Origin: the human T2T-CHM13v2.0 reference genome, Homo sapiens
Strand: one strand, 5' to 3'
Assembly: GCF_009914755.1 (NCBI RefSeq)
Contig: NC_060946.1
DNA: 64,000 nucleotides
Below, piece after piece: positions 17,720-64,000 of this stretch. A program made the position numbers and the translations under genes. Every line of letters starts with the position of its first letter. Position 1 is the stretch's first letter. The notes under the pieces are model-generated. The model was not told where the DNA came from. It ran no database searches and saw only the letters and a list, made by a program, of their open reading frames with translations.

Positions 17720-17758
<39 letters not shown>

Positions 17759-17783
17759 TCATTCAGCAAATATTTATTTATTT

Positions 17784-17820
<37 letters not shown>
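17720..17820 (+). repeat. Two GT microsatellites: (GT)19 at 17720-17757 and (GT)16 at 17789-17820
   Basis: Directly visible. Confidence 0.95.
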
Positions 17821-17824
<4 letters not shown>

Positions 17825-19198
17825 GTTTATTTTTTATTTCTCCAAACCTCTTTTTTTTTTTATTGATCATTCTTGGGTGTTTCTCACAGAGGGGGATTTG
17901 GCAGGGTCATAGGACAATAGTGGAGGGAAGATCAGCAGATAAACAAGTGAACAGAGGTCTCTGGTTTTCCTAGGCAGAGGACCCTGCGGCCTTCTGCAGT
18001 GTTTGTGTCCCTGGGTACTTGAGATTAGGGAGTGGTGATGACTCTTAACGAGCATGCTGCCTTCAAGCATCTGTTTAACAAAGCACATCTTGCACCGCCC
18101 TTAATCCATTTAACCCTGAGTGAACACCGCACATGTTTCAGAGAGCACAGGGTTGGGGGTAAGGTCATAGATCAACAGCATCCCAAGGCAGAATTTTTCT
18201 TAGTACAGAACAAAATGGAGTCTCCTATGTCTACTTGTTTCTACACAGACACAGCAACAATCTGATTTCTGTATCTTTTCCCCACATTTCCCCCTTTTCT
18301 ATTCGACAAAACCACCATCGTCATCATGGCCTGTTCTCAATGAGCTGTTGGGTACACCTCCCAGATGGGGTGGCAGCCGGGCAGAGGGGCTCCTCACTTC
18401 CCAGAAGGGGCGGCCGGGCAGAGGCGCCCCTACCTCCCGGACGGGGCGGCGGCCAGGCGGGGGCTGCCCCCCACCTCCCTCTTGGACGGGGCGGCTGGCC
18501 GGGCGGGGGCTGCCCCCCACCTCCCTCCCGGACGGGGCGGCTGCCGGGCGGAGACGCTCCTCACTTCCTAGACAGGGCGGCTGCCGGGCAGAGGGGCTCC
18601 TCGCTTCTCAGACGGGGCGGCTGCCGGGCGGAGGGGCTCCTCACTTCTCAGACGGGGCGGCCGGGCAGAGACACTCCTCACCTCCCAGATGGGGTTGCAG
18701 CCAGGCAGAGGCGCTCCTCACATCCCAGACGATGGGTGGCTGGGCAGAGACGCTCCTCACATCCCAGACAGGGTGGCGGCCGGGCAGAGGCTGCAATCTC
18801 GGCACTTTGGGAGGCCAAGGCAGGCGGCTGGGAGGTGGAGGTTGTAGCTAGCCGAGATCACGCCACTGCACTCCAGCCTGGGCAACATTGAGCACTGAGT
18901 GAACGAGACTCCGTCTGCAATCCCGGCACCTCGGGAGGCCGAGGCTGGCAGGTCACTCGCGGTTAGGAGCTGGAGACCAGCCTGGCCAACACAGCAAAAC
19001 CCCGTCTCCACCCAAAAAATACGAAAACCAGTCAGGCGTGGCGGCGCGCGCCTGCAATCCCAGGCACTCGGCAGGCTGAGGCAGGAGAATCACGCAGGGA
19101 GGTTGCAGTGAGCCGAGATGGCAGCAGTACAGTCCAGCTTTGGCTCGGCATCAGAGGGAGACCCTGGGGAGCGGGAGCGGGAGAGGGAGAGGGAGGGA
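17779..19198 (-). mobile_element. SVA retrotransposon, antisense to PPIL2 in intron 6, with short VNTR (older subfamily likely)
   Basis: On the - strand: CCCTCT-type hexamers at about 19165-19198, Alu-like region about 18790-19160, GC-rich VNTR about 18350-18790, SINE-R about 17861-18350, then poly(A). TSD CAGCAAATATTTATT at 17764-17778 and 19199-19213. Confidence 0.95.
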
Positions 19199-38381: not shown

Positions 38382-39036
38382 AGGTATGTCTGCCCCTCGT
38401 CACCCTGCTGCACACCAATCTGTGGCCCTTCATCATGCTAAGAACAAGAACTGCGCCATGGCTGGCTCCTTCTCTTCTCCAGCCCATCCCTCTGCAGCCT
38501 GTCATCCCTGTCTGTGACCATTGGTCGGGCCCCTGGGCTCTAGAGTGACTTTTGACGCCCTCCATCCCTCCCGCCAGGCACTGTCCTCCGCAAGGCCTGG
38601 TGCAGCCCTGGCAGTAACTGGCTTGTAAGAGGCTCAGACACCAAGCTGGGCCTGCAGAGGAGGGGCACAGTAGGACACAGTGACTGCCCAGGTGTCCACA
38701 CACCTGTAGGCCTCTGAGCCAGCGTCCAGGGTACAGGTGCGGGTGGTGGGGATGAAGGCCTGACCAGGGAGGGAGAAGCAGGTTTGGAGAGGACCCTGTG
38801 CCCACCCTGACAGACACCCTGGCTGGCCCTGACTGACTGTATTCTCTGGCCACATTCAAGTCCCCCATTGGTGGGGGCAGAGAAGTAGGACCAGGCCGTC
38901 CTTGGCTCCAGAGCTCGAAGACCCCAAGACAGCCCTCTGCTCTCAGCGGCGCCACAGAGAGCCTGGGCTCAGCCTTCTGCATCAGGACATGGCCTCGTCC
39001 ACTGAGGGCACGATTTAAACATTTGACATCAGAAGC

Positions 39037-39042
39037 TTTATT
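39037..39042 (-). terminator. YPEL1: YPEL1 distal poly(A) signal (AATAAA on - strand)
   Basis: TTTATT on + strand; a second copy at 39546-39551. Confidence 0.65.
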
Positions 39043-39318
39043 TGTAAACCTCACACAGATAAGGACCAAGGGCTGGCGGTGTGGCCAGAGGACAGGGGAA
39101 GCTGAAGGCCCCGTGCTTGAGCTCGGCAGTCCTGCTCCTTGCAGTGAAGCCACCATGGGTGACCGTCCAGCCTCACCCGGTGGCCTGCACAGTGAGGGAA
39201 GGGCTTCAGGGCCATCTGCTCCCAGGGCAGGGGACAGGCCACCAAGGACCTTTGGCAAATGAAGGTTTACATTTCTGTAGTTTGTTTGTTTTAGAGCTTA
39301 ATTTGTAGTTTTTTAGCT

Positions 39319-39324
39319 ATTAAA
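39319..39324 (+). terminator. PPIL2: PPIL2 distal poly(A) signal ATTAAA (further AATAAA at 40977 and 41471)
   Basis: Hexamer in U-rich context with upstream TGTA motifs. Confidence 0.6.
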
Positions 39325-41613
39325 ACCATTTGAATTTTTAACGACCTGATGAGGGCATCAGGTAAATTAAAGGATTTTGGGAAGATTCTTATTTTCAATT
39401 CTAATATCTGACAGATGCCATCAAGAATAAGCATTAAGGTATAAAAAATACTGTGTGTATAAAACAATGCCAAACCACATTCCTACAGCAAATGCACTGT
39501 GCCATTTATAACCCTGACATCACCTCCCAAGGCTCTCAAGGAAGATTTATTTTAAATAACTTAAATAGAAGTCCTAGATGATATTGTTTAGGAATTTAAG
39601 AGGGTGGTGGATATGGTCCTGTGAATAGCACTTCCCCTGAAGCCAGCTCATGGTCTGTTCATTTGGTTTAAAAATGAGCTTGTATTTTGCAGAAGCCCAA
39701 CAAAAAAAAAGTGATAAAAGTGTTGTTGGTATAAATTACAAAAAAAAAAAAAAAAATACAAAAGTCATAAGACTACTAGTAAAAAATGTTCAATCAATGC
39801 CGTCACAAAAGACAGTACAAAAACCAAAGTGCCCAAATAGAAGGAGCAGCGAACTTGCCCAAAACAGAAAAGCTCTAAATAGAACTTTAGTATATACAAA
39901 AACCACTCGGTAGAGTTTTAGAAGTTTCTTCCATGTAAGTGAAGCATCTTGAGTCACTCAGGACTTGGCTGTCCTCGCACCCGTGGCAGGCTGGGGACGG
40001 CACGGACCTCCAACTGTTTCCCCTAGTCCCCGGGGCATCGGAGGCTGGGTTCCCACATGGGAGAGGAATGAAGACTCACTCAAAGGGAAGGGTCAGTTTA
40101 AGATAAGTTTTCAGTGAACTCCTTCTTCCACCCGGGAAGGTGTCTTTCAGCCTCTTCACAGTCTCAAGACAATTGACTGAAGCCACAGGCATTGCTAACT
40201 TCATGGGCCAGCTTGTGGGCGGAGCCTCTTCAGGCTTGAGACCATGGCAGCAAGAGCCCTGCAGCGTGCAGTGACCCCTGCGCTCTGGGTGGCTGCACGC
40301 GAGCTCAGGAGGACAGGATGTGCTGGGCCAGCCTAAACCCTCGGGGGAGACTAGCGCAGGGATAAAGCAGCTTGCAGGGCCATAGCCGGATGTGGAGGCT
40401 TCCAAGACAGTACAAAGATTTCCTTCCTTTCCTAAGTGGAAGATGTGCTTTAAAGGAACTTCTGCCTCTGTCACTCCTGCTGAGTGGATGCATCTCAGTG
40501 CCATGCCCACCAGGGCAGCGGCATTTCCCACCTGCCAAGGCTTCCAGGCTTGGGCAAAGAGATGGCACCCAAAGGCATGCTGTGTGTGGGCAGTGAGCTC
40601 GAGTGGGCACAGCCCAGTGCCTGCCTGGACCGCAGGTCTGGGTTTAGGAAGGGCTGAAGTCGGGGGAGGTGTGAAGCTGGGCAGGTGGCCACGTTCTTAT
40701 TGTCAGCCAGCTCGCACTCTTGCCCCTAGACTAGCCTTGTCTGAAGGCAGCTTCAGAGCCACTTGCCAGGCTGAGAACTATCCGGGCTCAGTGCTCTCCT
40801 ATCTGCTGCCCCTCGGTCCCCCTGCCTGCCCTCTGCCCTGAGACAAGTTACTAAATGTTGAAAACCAAACTTATCTGGGAGTGGTTTTTGACCTCCATCC
40901 TCTGCAAAGTGGCCTAAACCCTTATGGGGTGCCCACTCCTGGTGGAGGGCAGGTGGATGAGTGGATCGTAATTTATAATAAAATATATGGCAGAAACACA
41001 GGCCTTAGGAGATTGCACAGGCCCCTCTATCAGTTCAAGTGACATGGGACAGCACCACGCAGGGACGGGCGACACTTCTAGCAGGCCAGGCGTCTTCATG
41101 CACAAAGGCTAAACTTGTTGCTTTAACCTTTTCTGAACAAATTTTAAACATTCTGGCAAATGTCAAGTTTTGAAGTTTTTCCTGTGGGTTCTGGCCTCTT
41201 TCATATGCAAAAATAATTCTTTTTCTTCAAGTACATCCAGGGTAGAAAATGAAATCTGACTTTTCCTCGGTCCAGTGTGTTACTCTATAGACATGGACCA
41301 GCCACTCAGCAACTGCCTGACACCTAAGCTGCTGTCACTGCTGAGGGCACAACCCCTGGTACCAGACCCTGTGAGGCTGTCACCTCAGTAAGGGCACCTC
41401 TGCGGGCCCCGGGACAGCCTTCTCTAAGGGCTAGCTCACCTGCTTTCTAGATAAGGAATCTACTGGCTTAAATAAACATGTTCCACTAGACACCATTCTC
41501 AATTTAGAGTGTATCTAAAATGTCATCTGTGCTGGCCTCTGTTTTTGAACAAGCTAAAAACCAAAAATGCCCTTAGTGTATAAGTCTGTTGACTGCCTCT
41601 GGAAGATTCTTAA

Positions 41614-50966: not shown

Positions 50967-51122
<156 letters not shown>

Positions 51123-51187: not shown

Positions 51188-51458
51188 TGGTCGTGACCTG
51201 TGAAGATGGGGAGACGTCATGACCTGAGGATGGGGGGAGGTCATGGCCTGTGAGGATGGGGGGAGGTCATGACCTATAAGGATGAGTGGAGGTAATGATC
51301 CGTGAGGATGGGTGCAAGTCATGAATTGAGCATGGGGGAGGTCATGACCTGTGAGGATGTGGGAGGTCATGACCTGAGGATCGGTGGTCATGACGTATGA
51401 GGATGCGGGGAGTTCATGACCTGAGGCTGGGGGGATGTCATGACCTGAGGATGGGTGG
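51188..51458. repeat. Minisatellite of 11 units (about 21-26 bp), consensus AGGTCATGACCT(GT)GAGGATGGGGG
   Basis: Directly visible; perfect palindromes at 51264, 51339 and 51364. Confidence 0.92.
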
Positions 51459-52110
51459 AGAACACTGTCATTCCGACTGAGCATCAGCTCCTCCATGATG
51501 TTTGGCCTGTTTAAATGTTCACAACTGGTTGATGATCAACACCACACACTGCTAATGAGGAGCTCAGCACAGTAAGGAGGGGCCAGGGGATCTTGTTTAC
51601 ATCTTCAAGGCTGCTCATGGGTTCTATGCACAGAGACCAGCCAGAGCTTCACCCAGGGCTCCTACACACCCGACAAACGCAGCCACACCCTCTGGGGCAT
51701 TTTTCTGAGCAACCCCTTTCCTTCTTAACCATGCTGAGTTTTTAAAATGTCTTAATACCCTTATTATTAAACCATTTCCACAGATTTTTCTAGACTTCTT
51801 TTGCTCATTCAGTCCTCTCTGGCTTTCTGCTGTGAGTAACAAGTGATTCACCTTGCCCCTCGTAATCCCTGGGAGTGCCAGCTGCCTGGCCCTGGAAAAC
51901 CGCCCACCATGCCAGGATCACATCTGAGATCGTGGCACAGCCACACTTAACCATGCACAAAACGCTCACCAATGCTGCCTAGAAGGCTCTAGACGTTCAG
52001 GACACAGCAGACTCAGGAAGTCATGTGATGCTTAAATATTCTTCCACTATGTAGGTACCACAATGACAGATAATCATTGTGCCATCAATTTTTTGGCATA
52101 AGCCACTTGC

Positions 52111-52227
52111 CTTGGAGATGAGCTCGTCATGATTGGCCAGGTGTGCTCTGCAGTGGATACAGCTGTACGTTCGGTGACAGTTCGGCAGATACGCTTGGAA
52201 AGTTTTGGACTTTGTCATTTTCACCAT
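52111..52227 (-). CDS. YPEL1: YPEL1 first coding exon ([39 protein letters not shown]); exon begins at 52391
   Basis: Within ORF 52021..52410; first CxxC; donor AAG|GCAAGT; acceptor ttggcag| at 52392. Four exons sum to 360 nt = 119 aa plus stop. Confidence 0.95.
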
Positions 52228-53035
52228 CTCTCCTGGGCACTCCTCACTCAGCTCAGGGCTGGTTCTGGAAGAACCGTGGCTCTGCTGGCCTCTCTGACAA
52301 AAGCAACACTGGAAAATGCACGCAAGAGCCGTCGTTGTCCAGGAGGGCGTGTGGCACTGTCCACACAGCTGGGACGAGAGAAAAACGTAACCTGCCAACC
52401 AATCAGACAAAGTGGTGGGTTACAGAGAGAACATGCGTGTGAAGCAGGTACATATGGGATTCATGTGTTGTGAAGCAACACGCGGGGTGGGGGGGTGGCA
52501 GGACTAGAATTTTTTTTTTTTTTTGAGATGGAGTCTCGCTCTGTTGCCCAGGCTGGAGTGCAGTGGCGCAATCTCAGCTCGCTGCAACCTCCTCCTCCTG
52601 GGTTCAAGCGATTCTCCTACCTCAGCCTCTGAGTAGCTGGGATTACAGGAACACGCCACCAAGCCTGGCCTCCCAAAGTGCTGGGATTACAAGCACCACT
52701 GCGCCTGACCAAGATCCAACTCTTTAGTATCAATTGTAGACAAAATGAACACTGACACCATGCCACTGCTTAACCACTTTACATTTTGTTGGAAGTGAAA
52801 AAATGAACTCCTTTTACATGCAAATAATTTGAGAAAAACATTGATTCAAATTCTTCTTATACCAGGTTTGGCTTTGGAAACATGAAAGGAGAGGCAGAAC
52901 CAAGACGCCCGGTGAGTGGGCCCGGTGGCAGGGCTGGATGCACCCCACCCCGAATCCGGGAATTCACCACGCAGAGCACCAGGACATTGAGGAATGTGAG
53001 TGATGGATCCAGTATTATTTAATCTTTAAGAAATT

Positions 53036-55245: not shown

Positions 55246-56697
55246 GAGTGTATCATTTTTACATTTCTAAGGTCTCATTAACAAAAGAAGGTTAAGTCCA
55301 TGACTGATGCTGCCATCATCAGCAACAGGACGTGCGCCAAGTTTTCCTGGTGGCACCACCCCAGCCTGGCCTGTGACAAGGGGCCTGCAGAGAGTCAGGC
55401 ACACCGGATTTTCTTTCAGGCCAAACAGAAGAGCAAGGGTTTCCCCAAATTCGAGAGCACGGGGCTGGGAAGAAGAGCCAAGCGCCAGCAGTGTCCTCAC
55501 ACCTGCTCCTCCTGAGATGCACCCCCCACCGCCCCCCACCCCATGTGACCTCTGCTCCGGCAGCAGCCTGTCCTGTGCCCTTCCATGGGATGACACCCAG
55601 GACGGCGTCTGCCCCCCACCTGCGCAGGCACGCCTGCATTAGAGGGTCACCTTCTCACATCTGGGACTGAAGATGTGTGTGGGCAGAACGCAGCGTTTGT
55701 AATCGTGTGAACGGAAGACACAAACGGCCGGTGGCGGCCACCCAGGATGGTACTGGGACCCGGTCACCACGGCGCTGCTGTGCCCTTCCTTGGTGCCCCG
55801 GCCTGAGATGCTGCCTAACTTGGACTTGGTGCTTCTTGGTCTTTGCTTGTCCTGATGGCTGTGCCCCGTGTGTGGCCCTGAGCCACACTGCTGCGTGTTC
55901 CGTGTTTTGAACTTGACACCGACGATGCTGTGAGACTTCTCTGCTGACGTGCAGCCAAGTCTGCCTCTGTCCCCATGTGCAGCTGGGCCCCCTTCACCTG
56001 GTGTCCCGTCAGATACACTGCATGCAGCCACTGACGGGGTGTGGATGTGTATCGGCTCCCAGGCTGGCTACTAAATGGTGCTGCTGTCGCTGTCACCTCT
56101 CCTGAGCCGCACAGGCAGGTGTTTCGTTGGAACAATCCCAGGAGCAGATGCCCGTGCACACAGCAGCACCTCCCAAGTGCCGGTGACAAGGTCATCCTGC
56201 CAGCAGCGAACATGAGTCCCTGCTGATCTTTATCCCGCCAACTTGATATGGTCAAATTTTAACACTTCTGCTGCCTGGCAGGTATAAGGCAGCAGCATCT
56301 CATTGTGGCTTTAATTTGCTTCAACCTGACCATACAGGTGGGCACCTTTTATGATTCCTCCTTTTCAAATCTTTGTCACATTTTCTATTAGCTGCTGGTC
56401 CTTTCCTTACTGATTCGTAGGAGTAAGTGATATATTCTGAAAACTAAAGCATACATTAAGCCATATCGGTCGTGGAATGATAAGCATTACTGGAATGTGG
56501 ACATGACTGTGCCTGTGATGTAAGCTTCAGGAAACTATAGTGTAAGGCATGTATGTATAGTATGTGGATAAATGGATATGCCATATACACACACACACAT
56601 ACATATACATATATGTGTGGATTATGTATGTACATGTGCATTAATGGGTTTCAAGTTCTCTAAAAGAAAAAGTGTAACTAGACAAAAAAACTATTAA

Positions 56698-64000
<7,303 letters not shown>

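What the first reader, a model, noticed from the sequence alone, without database searches (positions are those of the whole stretch)
51188..51458. Natural tandem array of the thyroid/retinoid palindromic response element (AGGTCATGACCT, IR0) in a YPEL1 intron
Seen: 11 units, each centred on a 12-bp palindrome. Three are perfect AGGTCATGACCT (51264-51275, 51339-51350, 51364-51375), one is AGTTCATGACCT (51411-51422), and most of the rest have 1-2 mismatches. G-rich GAGGATGGGGG spacers separate them. The array lies about 650 bp into the intron after the first YPEL1 coding exon. Established: AGGTCATGACCT is the classic TREpal, bound by TR homodimers, TR/RXR and RAR/RXR, and is usually multimerised artificially in reporters. 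Inference: this minisatellite may be a homotypic hormone-responsive enhancer or silencer for YPEL1 or PPIL2, tunable by copy number. G-quadruplex formation is also possible.
Basis: partly seen in the sequence, partly recalled or inferred. Interest (0 to 1): 0.8.

Follow-up and report, generated by a model that had tools for sequence, protein, structure and literature searches.

The report
Old intronic minisatellite carrying TREpal palindromes
An old, single-copy 11-unit tandem repeat in a YPEL1 intron does carry the classic thyroid/retinoid palindrome in its repeat unit, but the sequence looks like a neutrally decaying minisatellite, and any hormone response is untested.

Summary
Window 51188-51460 holds 11 head-to-tail units of 21-26 bp (TRF score 250-270). 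Each unit starts with a copy of AGGTCATGACCT: 3 perfect, 4 with one mismatch, 2 with two, 2 with three. The spacer is G-rich, (GT)GAGGATGGGGGG.

The array is single-copy in the genome. It holds 3 of the 116 perfect TREpal sites in the assembly. It is the only place where two GGTCATGACC lie 5-35 bp apart, but five control palindromes gave 3, 1, 0, 0 and 1 such places, so one tandem locus is what chance gives.

Within the array the palindrome decays as fast as the spacer (14/132 against 15/139 mismatches). Uniform decay predicts 2.9 perfect copies and 3 are seen. Units differ by 19% on average and neighbours are no more alike, so the array is old and not homogenised.

No G-quadruplex motif is present. 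Published TR ChIP-seq finds only DR4. A tandem IR0 reporter answered 9-cis-retinoic acid with RXR, not T3.

Most likely this is a neutral minisatellite with passenger receptor sites. A retinoid/rexinoid element remains possible, since YPEL1 falls with ATRA in MCF-7 cells. Occupancy, primate conservation and copy-number variation could not be tested here.

The parts
51188..51460 (.). Minisatellite array: 11 units of 21-26 bp, each a 12-bp palindrome plus a G-rich spacer (GT)GAGGATGGGGGG. G-rich on the + strand (G 119, C 35).
   Evidence: TRF; unit table; single copy in the genome.
51188..51199 (.). Unit 1 palindrome TGGTCGTGACCT, 2 mismatches; right half-site intact.
51214..51225 (.). Unit 2 palindrome ACGTCATGACCT, 1 mismatch.
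51238..51249 (.). Unit 3 palindrome AGGTCATGGCCT, 1 mismatch.
51264..51275 (.). Unit 4, perfect AGGTCATGACCT.
51290..51301 (.). Unit 5, AGGTAATGATCC, 3 mismatches; neither half-site fits RGKTCA.
51316..51327 (.). Unit 6, AAGTCATGAATT, 3 mismatches; neither half-site fits RGKTCA.
51339..51350 (.). Unit 7, perfect AGGTCATGACCT.
51364..51375 (.). Unit 8, perfect AGGTCATGACCT. With unit 7 it forms the only pair of GGTCATGACC within 5-35 bp in the genome.
51385..51396 (.). Unit 9, TGGTCATGACGT, 2 mismatches.
51411..51422 (.). Unit 10, AGTTCATGACCT, 1 mismatch; both halves still fit RGKTCA.
51435..51446 (.). Unit 11, ATGTCATGACCT, 1 mismatch.

Best explanation
This is an old, single-locus intronic minisatellite. 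A 24-26 bp unit that happened to contain the 12-bp palindrome AGGTCATGACCT was duplicated head to tail to about 11 copies. Strand slippage may have been helped by hairpins between palindrome copies (inferred). All positions have since drifted at the same rate. The nuclear-receptor sites are passengers of that duplication, not a selected hormone-response module. RXR-containing dimers would probably bind the intact copies in vitro, but the most likely effect on YPEL1 or PPIL2 is none or negligible.

Shown: array anatomy, uniqueness in the genome, equal decay of palindrome and spacer, and unit divergence. Inferred: the duplication mechanism, the age, and the lack of function.
For: 1. Equal decay. 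The palindrome has 14/132 mismatches to consensus and the spacer 15/139 (Fisher p = 1.0). The spacer also carries 15 gap positions.
2. The number of perfect copies is what uniform decay predicts: 2.86 expected of 11, 3 observed, P(>=3) = 0.58.
3. Mean pairwise unit distance is 0.19 over 55 pairs (JC 0.22). Adjacent units (0.189) are no closer than average. That gives roughly 50-110 My of divergence at 2.2e-9 to 1e-9 per site per year, with no recent homogenisation.
4. No genome-wide signal.
- Perfect TREpal occurs 116 times, against 145 for the reversed control.
- Pairs of the 10-bp core within 5-35 bp occur at 1 place. Five control palindromes of like composition give 3, 1, 0, 0 and 1 places.
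5. The array and its 640-bp downstream flank are single-copy. The unit is not a dispersed family: at <=2 mismatches there are only 4 hits in the array plus two lone sites, neither of them an array.
6. Literature.
- DR4 is the only motif enriched in pooled TR ChIP-seq, and the authors doubt IR0 (PMC9570117).
- A perfect natural IR0 at mouse Gbp3 +10643 gave 1.2-fold TRalpha1 enrichment, against 6-9.5-fold for Hr and Klf9 DR4 elements (PMC3346809 table).
- 'IP0' enrichment in human TRbeta peaks was 1.68, no more than a bare half-site at 2.10 (PMC3928038 Table 1). The pattern as printed there is tail-to-tail, so its bearing on TREpal is uncertain.
7. Single strands of the array fold better than shuffles (z -3.8 RNA, - strand; z -3.7 DNA, + strand) because any palindrome copy pairs with any other. 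This fits hairpin-aided slippage.
Against: - The within-array decay test has low power (11 units, about 270 cells). Gene conversion could blur position-specific constraint.
- 12 of 22 half-sites still fit RGKTCA, and 4 of 11 units keep both halves. That is a dense cluster of strong sites.
- The site spacing (9-14 bp spacers) resembles a 2xIR0 reporter with a 16-bp spacer. That reporter gave 1.7-3.2-fold activation with 9-cis-RA, with RXR alone or TR+RXR (PMC4074170).
- RAR-RXR is stated to bind IR0 (PMC7515732; PMC11959543).
- YPEL1 mRNA fell to <=50% with ATRA in MCF-7 and to 0.54 with siRARalpha1. No RAR site lay within 10 kb of the TSS (PMC3109587 Table 1). The array is 25.8 kb from the main TSS, so a distal element is not excluded.
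- No ChIP, accessibility, primate or population data could be consulted.
Confidence: 0.6

Rival explanations
1. The array is a working homotypic nuclear-receptor element. It would be bound mainly by RXR-containing dimers (RXR-RXR, RAR-RXR, perhaps TR-RXR or COUP-TF) and would modulate YPEL1, and possibly PPIL2, in response to retinoids or rexinoids rather than T3 alone.
For: - 3 perfect and 4 one-mismatch IR0 copies lie within 273 bp.
- 12 of 22 half-sites fit RGKTCA.
- It is the only multi-copy TREpal locus in the genome, holding 3 of 116 perfect sites.
- A 2xIR0 reporter responds to 9-cis-RA with RXR (PMC4074170).
- RAR-RXR binds IR0 (PMC7515732, PMC11959543).
- YPEL1 is ATRA-repressed and RARalpha1-dependent in MCF-7, with no RAR site within 10 kb of the TSS (PMC3109587).
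Against: - Palindrome positions decay as fast as spacer positions, and the perfect-copy count equals the neutral expectation.
- TR cistromes show DR4 only (PMC9570117).
- A natural perfect IR0 was not bound by TRalpha1 (PMC3346809).
- T3 alone was inactive on IR0 (PMC4074170).
- No paper links YPEL1 to thyroid hormone regulation (3 papers hold both terms; judged unrelated from listing titles and abstract starts only) or to an intronic receptor site.
- If the MCF-7 study used the internal TSS near 56730, the array at 5.3 kb would fall inside its 10-kb search window, and the '-' entry would count against RAR binding.
Confidence: 0.2
2. The array acts at the RNA level. On the YPEL1-sense (- strand) pre-mRNA each unit reads as a pyrimidine/C-rich tract followed by YAG|GTCATG. 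The array would then be a row of decoy 3' splice sites, or a platform for poly(C)- or polypyrimidine-binding proteins, influencing splicing of this GC-AG intron.
For: - 8 of 11 units end in YAG followed by G.
- The pyrimidine fraction at -20..-5 averages 0.76, against 0.74 for the 23 annotated acceptors in the window.
- The host intron starts with a non-canonical AAG|GCAAGT donor.
- An alternative GT donor at 51970 is annotated (hub table).
- Inter-unit hairpins are predicted in the RNA (z -3.8).
Against: - No annotated exon uses an acceptor inside the array (hub table).
- Pseudo-acceptors are common in introns.
- The abutting GTCATG is a poor donor compared with the 22 real donors listed.
- No RNA-seq or CLIP data were available.
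- The scoring was a crude pyrimidine count, not a splice-site model.
Confidence: 0.07
3. The array is a DNA-structure element (G-quadruplex, cruciform or hairpin) or a recombination-hotspot minisatellite whose role is structural instability rather than protein-coded regulation.
For: - Strong G/C strand asymmetry: G 119 against C 35, GC skew +0.32 to +0.39.
- Hairpin potential on single strands: z -3.7 (DNA, + strand) and -3.8 (RNA, - strand).
Against: - There is no run of four G3+ tracts on either strand, even with loops up to 25 nt.
- G4Hunter scores are modest: mean 0.79, best 25-nt window 1.36.
- There is no PRDM9 13-mer match on either strand.
- 12-bp stems are short for cruciform extrusion (general knowledge).
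- High unit divergence without local homogenisation argues against an active unstable array.
Confidence: 0.05

Closest known systems
Synthetic multimerised TREpal / IR0 reporters (for example 2xAGGTCATGACCT with a 16-bp spacer, Paquette et al. 2014, PMC4074170)
   Same: The 12-mer is identical. Copies are tandem at similar centre-to-centre spacing (21-26 bp here, 28 bp in the reporter). The reporter shows that such an arrangement can drive RXR/9-cis-RA-dependent transcription.
   Different: This array is natural, intronic and degenerate: only 3 of 11 copies are perfect. It has G-rich spacers and has not been tested. The reporter did not respond to T3 alone.
Classical G-rich minisatellites / VNTRs carrying transcription-factor sites (for example MNS16A at TERT, PMC5438627, listing abstract only)
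   Same: Head-to-tail units of tens of bp, strand asymmetry in G, and a transcription-factor site in every unit, so site number scales with copy number.
   Different: MNS16A is polymorphic and has been tested functionally. This array's units are 19% diverged with no sign of recent turnover. Polymorphism and function are unknown.
Alu-borne DR2 retinoic acid response elements (Laperriere et al. 2007, PMC1785376, listing title and abstract start only)
   Same: Repetitive DNA multiplies consensus AGGTCA-type receptor sites in primate genomes, mostly without selection for function.
   Different: Those spread by retrotransposition and number many thousands (recalled). They have DR2 geometry. Here the mechanism is local tandem duplication at one locus, with IR0 geometry.
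Natural single IR0 elements (mouse TR2-11 IR0 RARE, cited as ref. 20 in PMC4446430; IR0 component of the rat Gh1 TRE, as described in PMC4074170)
   Same: Inverted AGGTCA half-sites with zero spacer in a natural gene context.
   Different: Those are single, promoter-proximal and experimentally characterised. This is an 11-unit intronic array with no experimental data.

Membership tests
IR0 / TREpal hormone response element | Two RGKTCA half-sites in inverted (head-to-head) orientation with no spacer | tested here: met
   3 of 11 units are perfect AGGTCATGACCT and 4 of 11 keep both halves within RGKTCA. 12 of 22 half-sites fit RGKTCA.
IR0 / TREpal hormone response element | Binding by TR, RAR or RXR dimers (EMSA or ChIP) | not testable with these tools
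   No ChIP, EMSA or accessibility data were reachable.
IR0 / TREpal hormone response element | Ligand-dependent change in transcription of a linked gene | not testable with these tools
   Only indirect evidence: YPEL1 falls with ATRA in MCF-7 (PMC3109587). There is no link to this array.
IR0 / TREpal hormone response element | Half-site positions conserved better than neighbouring positions | tested here: not met
   Within the array: 14/132 against 15/139 mismatches, Fisher p = 1.0. Power is low, and the cross-species test was not possible.
Minisatellite (VNTR) | Head-to-tail array of units of about 10-100 bp | tested here: met
   TRF reports period 26, 11.0 copies, score 250.
Minisatellite (VNTR) | Copy number varies between individuals | not testable with these tools
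   Only one human assembly is held. Unit divergence of 0.19 with no adjacent-unit similarity suggests low turnover (inference).
G-quadruplex-forming sequence | Four or more G3+ tracts separated by short loops | tested here: not met
   There are 0 matches on either strand with maximum loops of 7, 12, 21 or 25 nt. G4Hunter mean is 0.79.
Interspersed repeat (transposon-derived internal tandem repeat) | Array or flanks present in many copies in the genome | tested here: not met
   The array and a 640-bp flank each hit only their own locus. The unit pattern is not dispersed. Very old, diverged families could escape these searches.

The most novel reading that the evidence does not exclude
The only natural multi-copy TREpal locus in the human genome is a working, retinoid/rexinoid-responsive homotypic element. 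Through RXR-containing dimers and their corepressors it would mediate the ATRA repression and apo-RARalpha dependence of YPEL1. It would also be the first natural test case showing that IR0 sites are used in vivo.
Probability: 0.12. Interest if true: 0.6.

Novelty: new member of a known kind. Interest (0 to 1): 0.3.

Why it matters
Whether IR0 (TREpal) sites matter in vivo is disputed. They work in reporters, but TR cistromes show only DR4. This array holds 3 of the 116 perfect TREpal sites in the genome plus 4 near-perfect ones within 273 bp, and it is uniquely mappable. That makes it the best natural locus to look up in existing RXR, RAR and TR ChIP-seq data. A clear peak would give a natural IR0 enhancer or silencer for a gene whose retinoid repression is unexplained. 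No peak anywhere would be good evidence that even ideal IR0 clusters are ignored in chromatin. As it stands the locus looks like an ordinary old minisatellite.

Tried and rejected
- Dispersed repeat or transposon origin. The array and the downstream flank hit only themselves. The unit pattern at <=3 mismatches gave 48 forward and 35 reverse hits against 22 and 27 for the control, but at <=2 mismatches only the array plus two lone sites on C16 and C23. Neither of those is an array.
- A 12th degenerate unit at either edge. Local alignment of the consensus to both flanks scored only 9-11, so this was rejected.
- G-quadruplex, PRDM9 13-mer and p53 half-site (RRRCWWGYYY): no matches.
- Structured RNA family. 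Rfam at E<=1 found only the neighbouring Alu monomer (SRP model, 50978-51094, 48.5 bits, below the gathering score of 70) and chance-level hits.
- One control search used a 12-bp rather than a 10-bp palindrome (0 and 0). It is comparable only with the 12-mer pair, not with the 10-mer series.
- Literature on the locus.
  - YPEL1 + thyroid hormone: 3 papers, judged unrelated from listing titles and abstract starts only.
  - TREpal + minisatellite: 0 papers.
  - YPEL1 + VNTR: 1 paper, judged unrelated from its listing only.
  - YPEL1 + nuclear receptor: 11 papers, none about this site judging from the listing; only PMC3109587 was read.
  - The 12-mer as text: 11 papers, none about YPEL1 judging from the listing and the two papers read.
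Peak lists that might cover this site were therefore not seen.
The within-array decay test was used in its place.

Full report
**Observation**

The sequence at 51188-51460 is a true tandem array. TRF reports 51189-51460 with period 26, 11.0 copies, 75% matches, 7% indels and score 250. It also reports a 50-bp higher-order period (5.5 copies, score 270).

The units are 26, 24, 26, 26, 26, 23, 25, 21, 26, 24 and 24 bp long. Each begins with a copy of AGGTCATGACCT. The copies start at 51188, 51214, 51238, 51264, 51290, 51316, 51339, 51364, 51385, 51411 and 51435, with 2, 1, 1, 0, 3, 3, 0, 0, 2, 1 and 1 mismatches. The spacer consensus is (GT)GAGGATGGGGGG.

The + strand is strongly G-rich: G 119 against C 35, with GC skew +0.32 to +0.39.

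In the window, 12 sites match the 12-mer at <=2 mismatches, against 3.46 +/- 1.77 (largest 8) in 100 shuffles. Nine of the 12 are in the array. The array ends 650 bp from the YPEL1 exon at 52111-52391.

**Uniqueness and chance**

The window's own assembly holds 3.117 Gb. In it the 273-bp array matches only itself, and so does the 640-bp downstream flank.

The consensus unit is not a dispersed family. At <=2 mismatches there are only four hits in the array plus single sites on C16 and C23. Neither of those is an array.

Perfect AGGTCATGACCT occurs 116 times genome-wide, against 145 for the reversed control. The motif is therefore not enriched, and 3 of the 116 copies lie here.

Two copies of the 10-bp core within 5-35 bp occur at exactly one place in the genome, which is this one. 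Five control 10-bp palindromes of similar composition give 3, 1, 0, 0 and 1 places. One tandem locus for any given palindrome is what the genome yields by chance. A 12-bp control pair gave 0 and 0.

The array is real. Its 11 palindromes are a single duplication history, not 11 independent events.

**Signs of selection within the array**

- Mismatches to the consensus are 14 of 132 in the palindrome and 15 of 139 in the spacer (Fisher p = 1.0). The spacer also carries 15 gap positions.
- The left half-site has 8 of 66 mismatches, the right half-site 6 of 66, and the central CATG 2 of 44.
- With 10.6% decay per site, 2.86 of 11 twelve-mers should still be perfect. Three are, with P(>=3) = 0.58.
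- Mean pairwise unit distance is 0.19 over 55 pairs (range 0.08-0.35; JC 0.22). Adjacent units average 0.189 and units two apart average 0.205.

There is no recent homogenisation. At 1e-9 to 2.2e-9 substitutions per site per year the units have been diverging for roughly 50-110 My. This is a rough inference that assumes no gene conversion.

The picture is an old array drifting neutrally. It argues against, but does not exclude, a copy-number-variable 'tunable' element. The test has low power.

**Other sequence-level readings**

- No G-quadruplex motif exists on either strand, even with loops up to 25 nt. G4Hunter scores are a mean of 0.79 and a best 25-nt window of 1.36.
- There is no PRDM9 13-mer and no p53 half-site.
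- Single strands fold better than shuffles: z -3.8 for the YPEL1-sense RNA and z -3.7 for + strand DNA. This follows mechanically from repeated palindromes. It could have aided slippage when the array formed (inferred).
- Rfam finds only the neighbouring Alu monomer.
- On the YPEL1-sense strand, 8 of 11 units read as a pyrimidine tract followed by YAG|G. Their pyrimidine fraction is 0.76, against 0.74 for the 23 annotated acceptors in the window.
- The host intron begins with a GC donor, AAG|GCAAGT.
- No annotated exon uses the array, so an RNA-level role is only a minor rival.

**Literature read here**

- In a pooled analysis of mouse TR ChIP-seq, DR4 was the only enriched motif. The authors question the physiological relevance of IR0 and ER6 (PMC9570117, passages).
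- In human HepG2 TRbeta peaks, 'IP0' was enriched 1.68-fold. A bare half-site was enriched 2.10-fold and DR4 patterns 17.6- to 26-fold (PMC3928038 Table 1). The IP0 pattern as printed is tail-to-tail, so its bearing on TREpal is uncertain.
- A natural perfect AGGTCATGACCT at mouse Gbp3 +10643 gave 1.2 +/- 0.23-fold TRalpha1 enrichment. DR4 elements of Hr and Klf9 gave 6-9.5-fold (PMC3346809, table passage).
- A luciferase reporter with two AGGTCATGACCT copies 16 bp apart did not respond to T3, with TR alone or with TR+RXR. It responded to 9-cis-RA, with RXR alone or TR+RXR (1.7-fold with TR+RXR and 9-cis-RA alone; 3.2-fold with TR+RXR and T3 plus 9-cis-RA). The authors suggest that IR0 behaves as an RXR element (PMC4074170, abstract and passages).
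- RAR-RXR is stated to bind IR0 (PMC7515732 discussion; PMC11959543 introduction; PMC4446430 introduction).
- YPEL1 is listed as down-regulated to <=50% by ATRA (1 uM, 24 h) in MCF-7. It is reduced to 0.58 by siER and to 0.54 by siRARalpha1, and has no RAR site within 10 kb of the TSS (PMC3109587 Table 1 and footnote).

The array is 25.8 kb from the main TSS and 4.2-5.3 kb from the internal first exon at 55651-56730. Whether the MCF-7 study's 10-kb search covered the array depends on which TSS it used.

No paper found links this array, or any YPEL1 intronic site, to a receptor.

**Conclusion**

The best-supported reading (about 0.6) is an ordinary, old, single-locus minisatellite whose unit happened to include the TREpal palindrome. 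The receptor sites are passengers.

The main rival (about 0.2) is a working element for RXR-containing dimers, responsive to retinoids or rexinoids rather than T3. The indirect support for it is the tandem-IR0 reporter result and the unexplained ATRA repression of YPEL1.

RNA-level and DNA-structure roles are minor rivals.

What would decide the matter could not be reached here: receptor ChIP-seq and accessibility at the site, primate alignments, and long-read copy-number data.

Noticed in passing
window 52105-52116 (- strand), donor of YPEL1 exon 52111-52391: The intron that hosts the array starts with a non-canonical GC donor (AAG|GCAAGT). The alternative longer exon ending at 51970 uses a canonical GTGAGC donor.
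   Followed up: partly
window 51188-51460, - strand: On the YPEL1-sense strand, 8 of 11 units look like 3' splice sites: a pyrimidine tract followed by YAG|G. Their pyrimidine fraction is 0.76, against 0.74 for the 23 annotated acceptors in the window. Each is abutted by a weak GT (GTCATG).
   Followed up: partly
window 50978-51094 (+), with an A-rich tail to about 51140: A lone Alu monomer lies about 45-90 bp upstream of the array. It matches the SRP RNA model at 48.5 bits, below the gathering score of 70.
   Followed up: no
window 18355-18791: A GC-rich 40-bp VNTR (10.9 copies; also periods of 46 and 77) lies inside a masked block in a PPIL2 intron. (GT)n and (TG)n runs precede it at 17720-17820. 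From memory it resembles the VNTR region of an SVA element.
   Followed up: no
window 39014-41495: According to the hub gene table, PPIL2 (+) transcripts and the YPEL1 (-) 3' exon overlap tail to tail over about 2.5 kb.
   Followed up: no
G000:C8:134253132 and G000:C8:134256556: Two perfect AGGTCATGACCT sites lie 3.4 kb apart on contig C8. This is the only other close pair visible in the part of the genome-wide list that was printed, which was truncated after C8.
   Followed up: no
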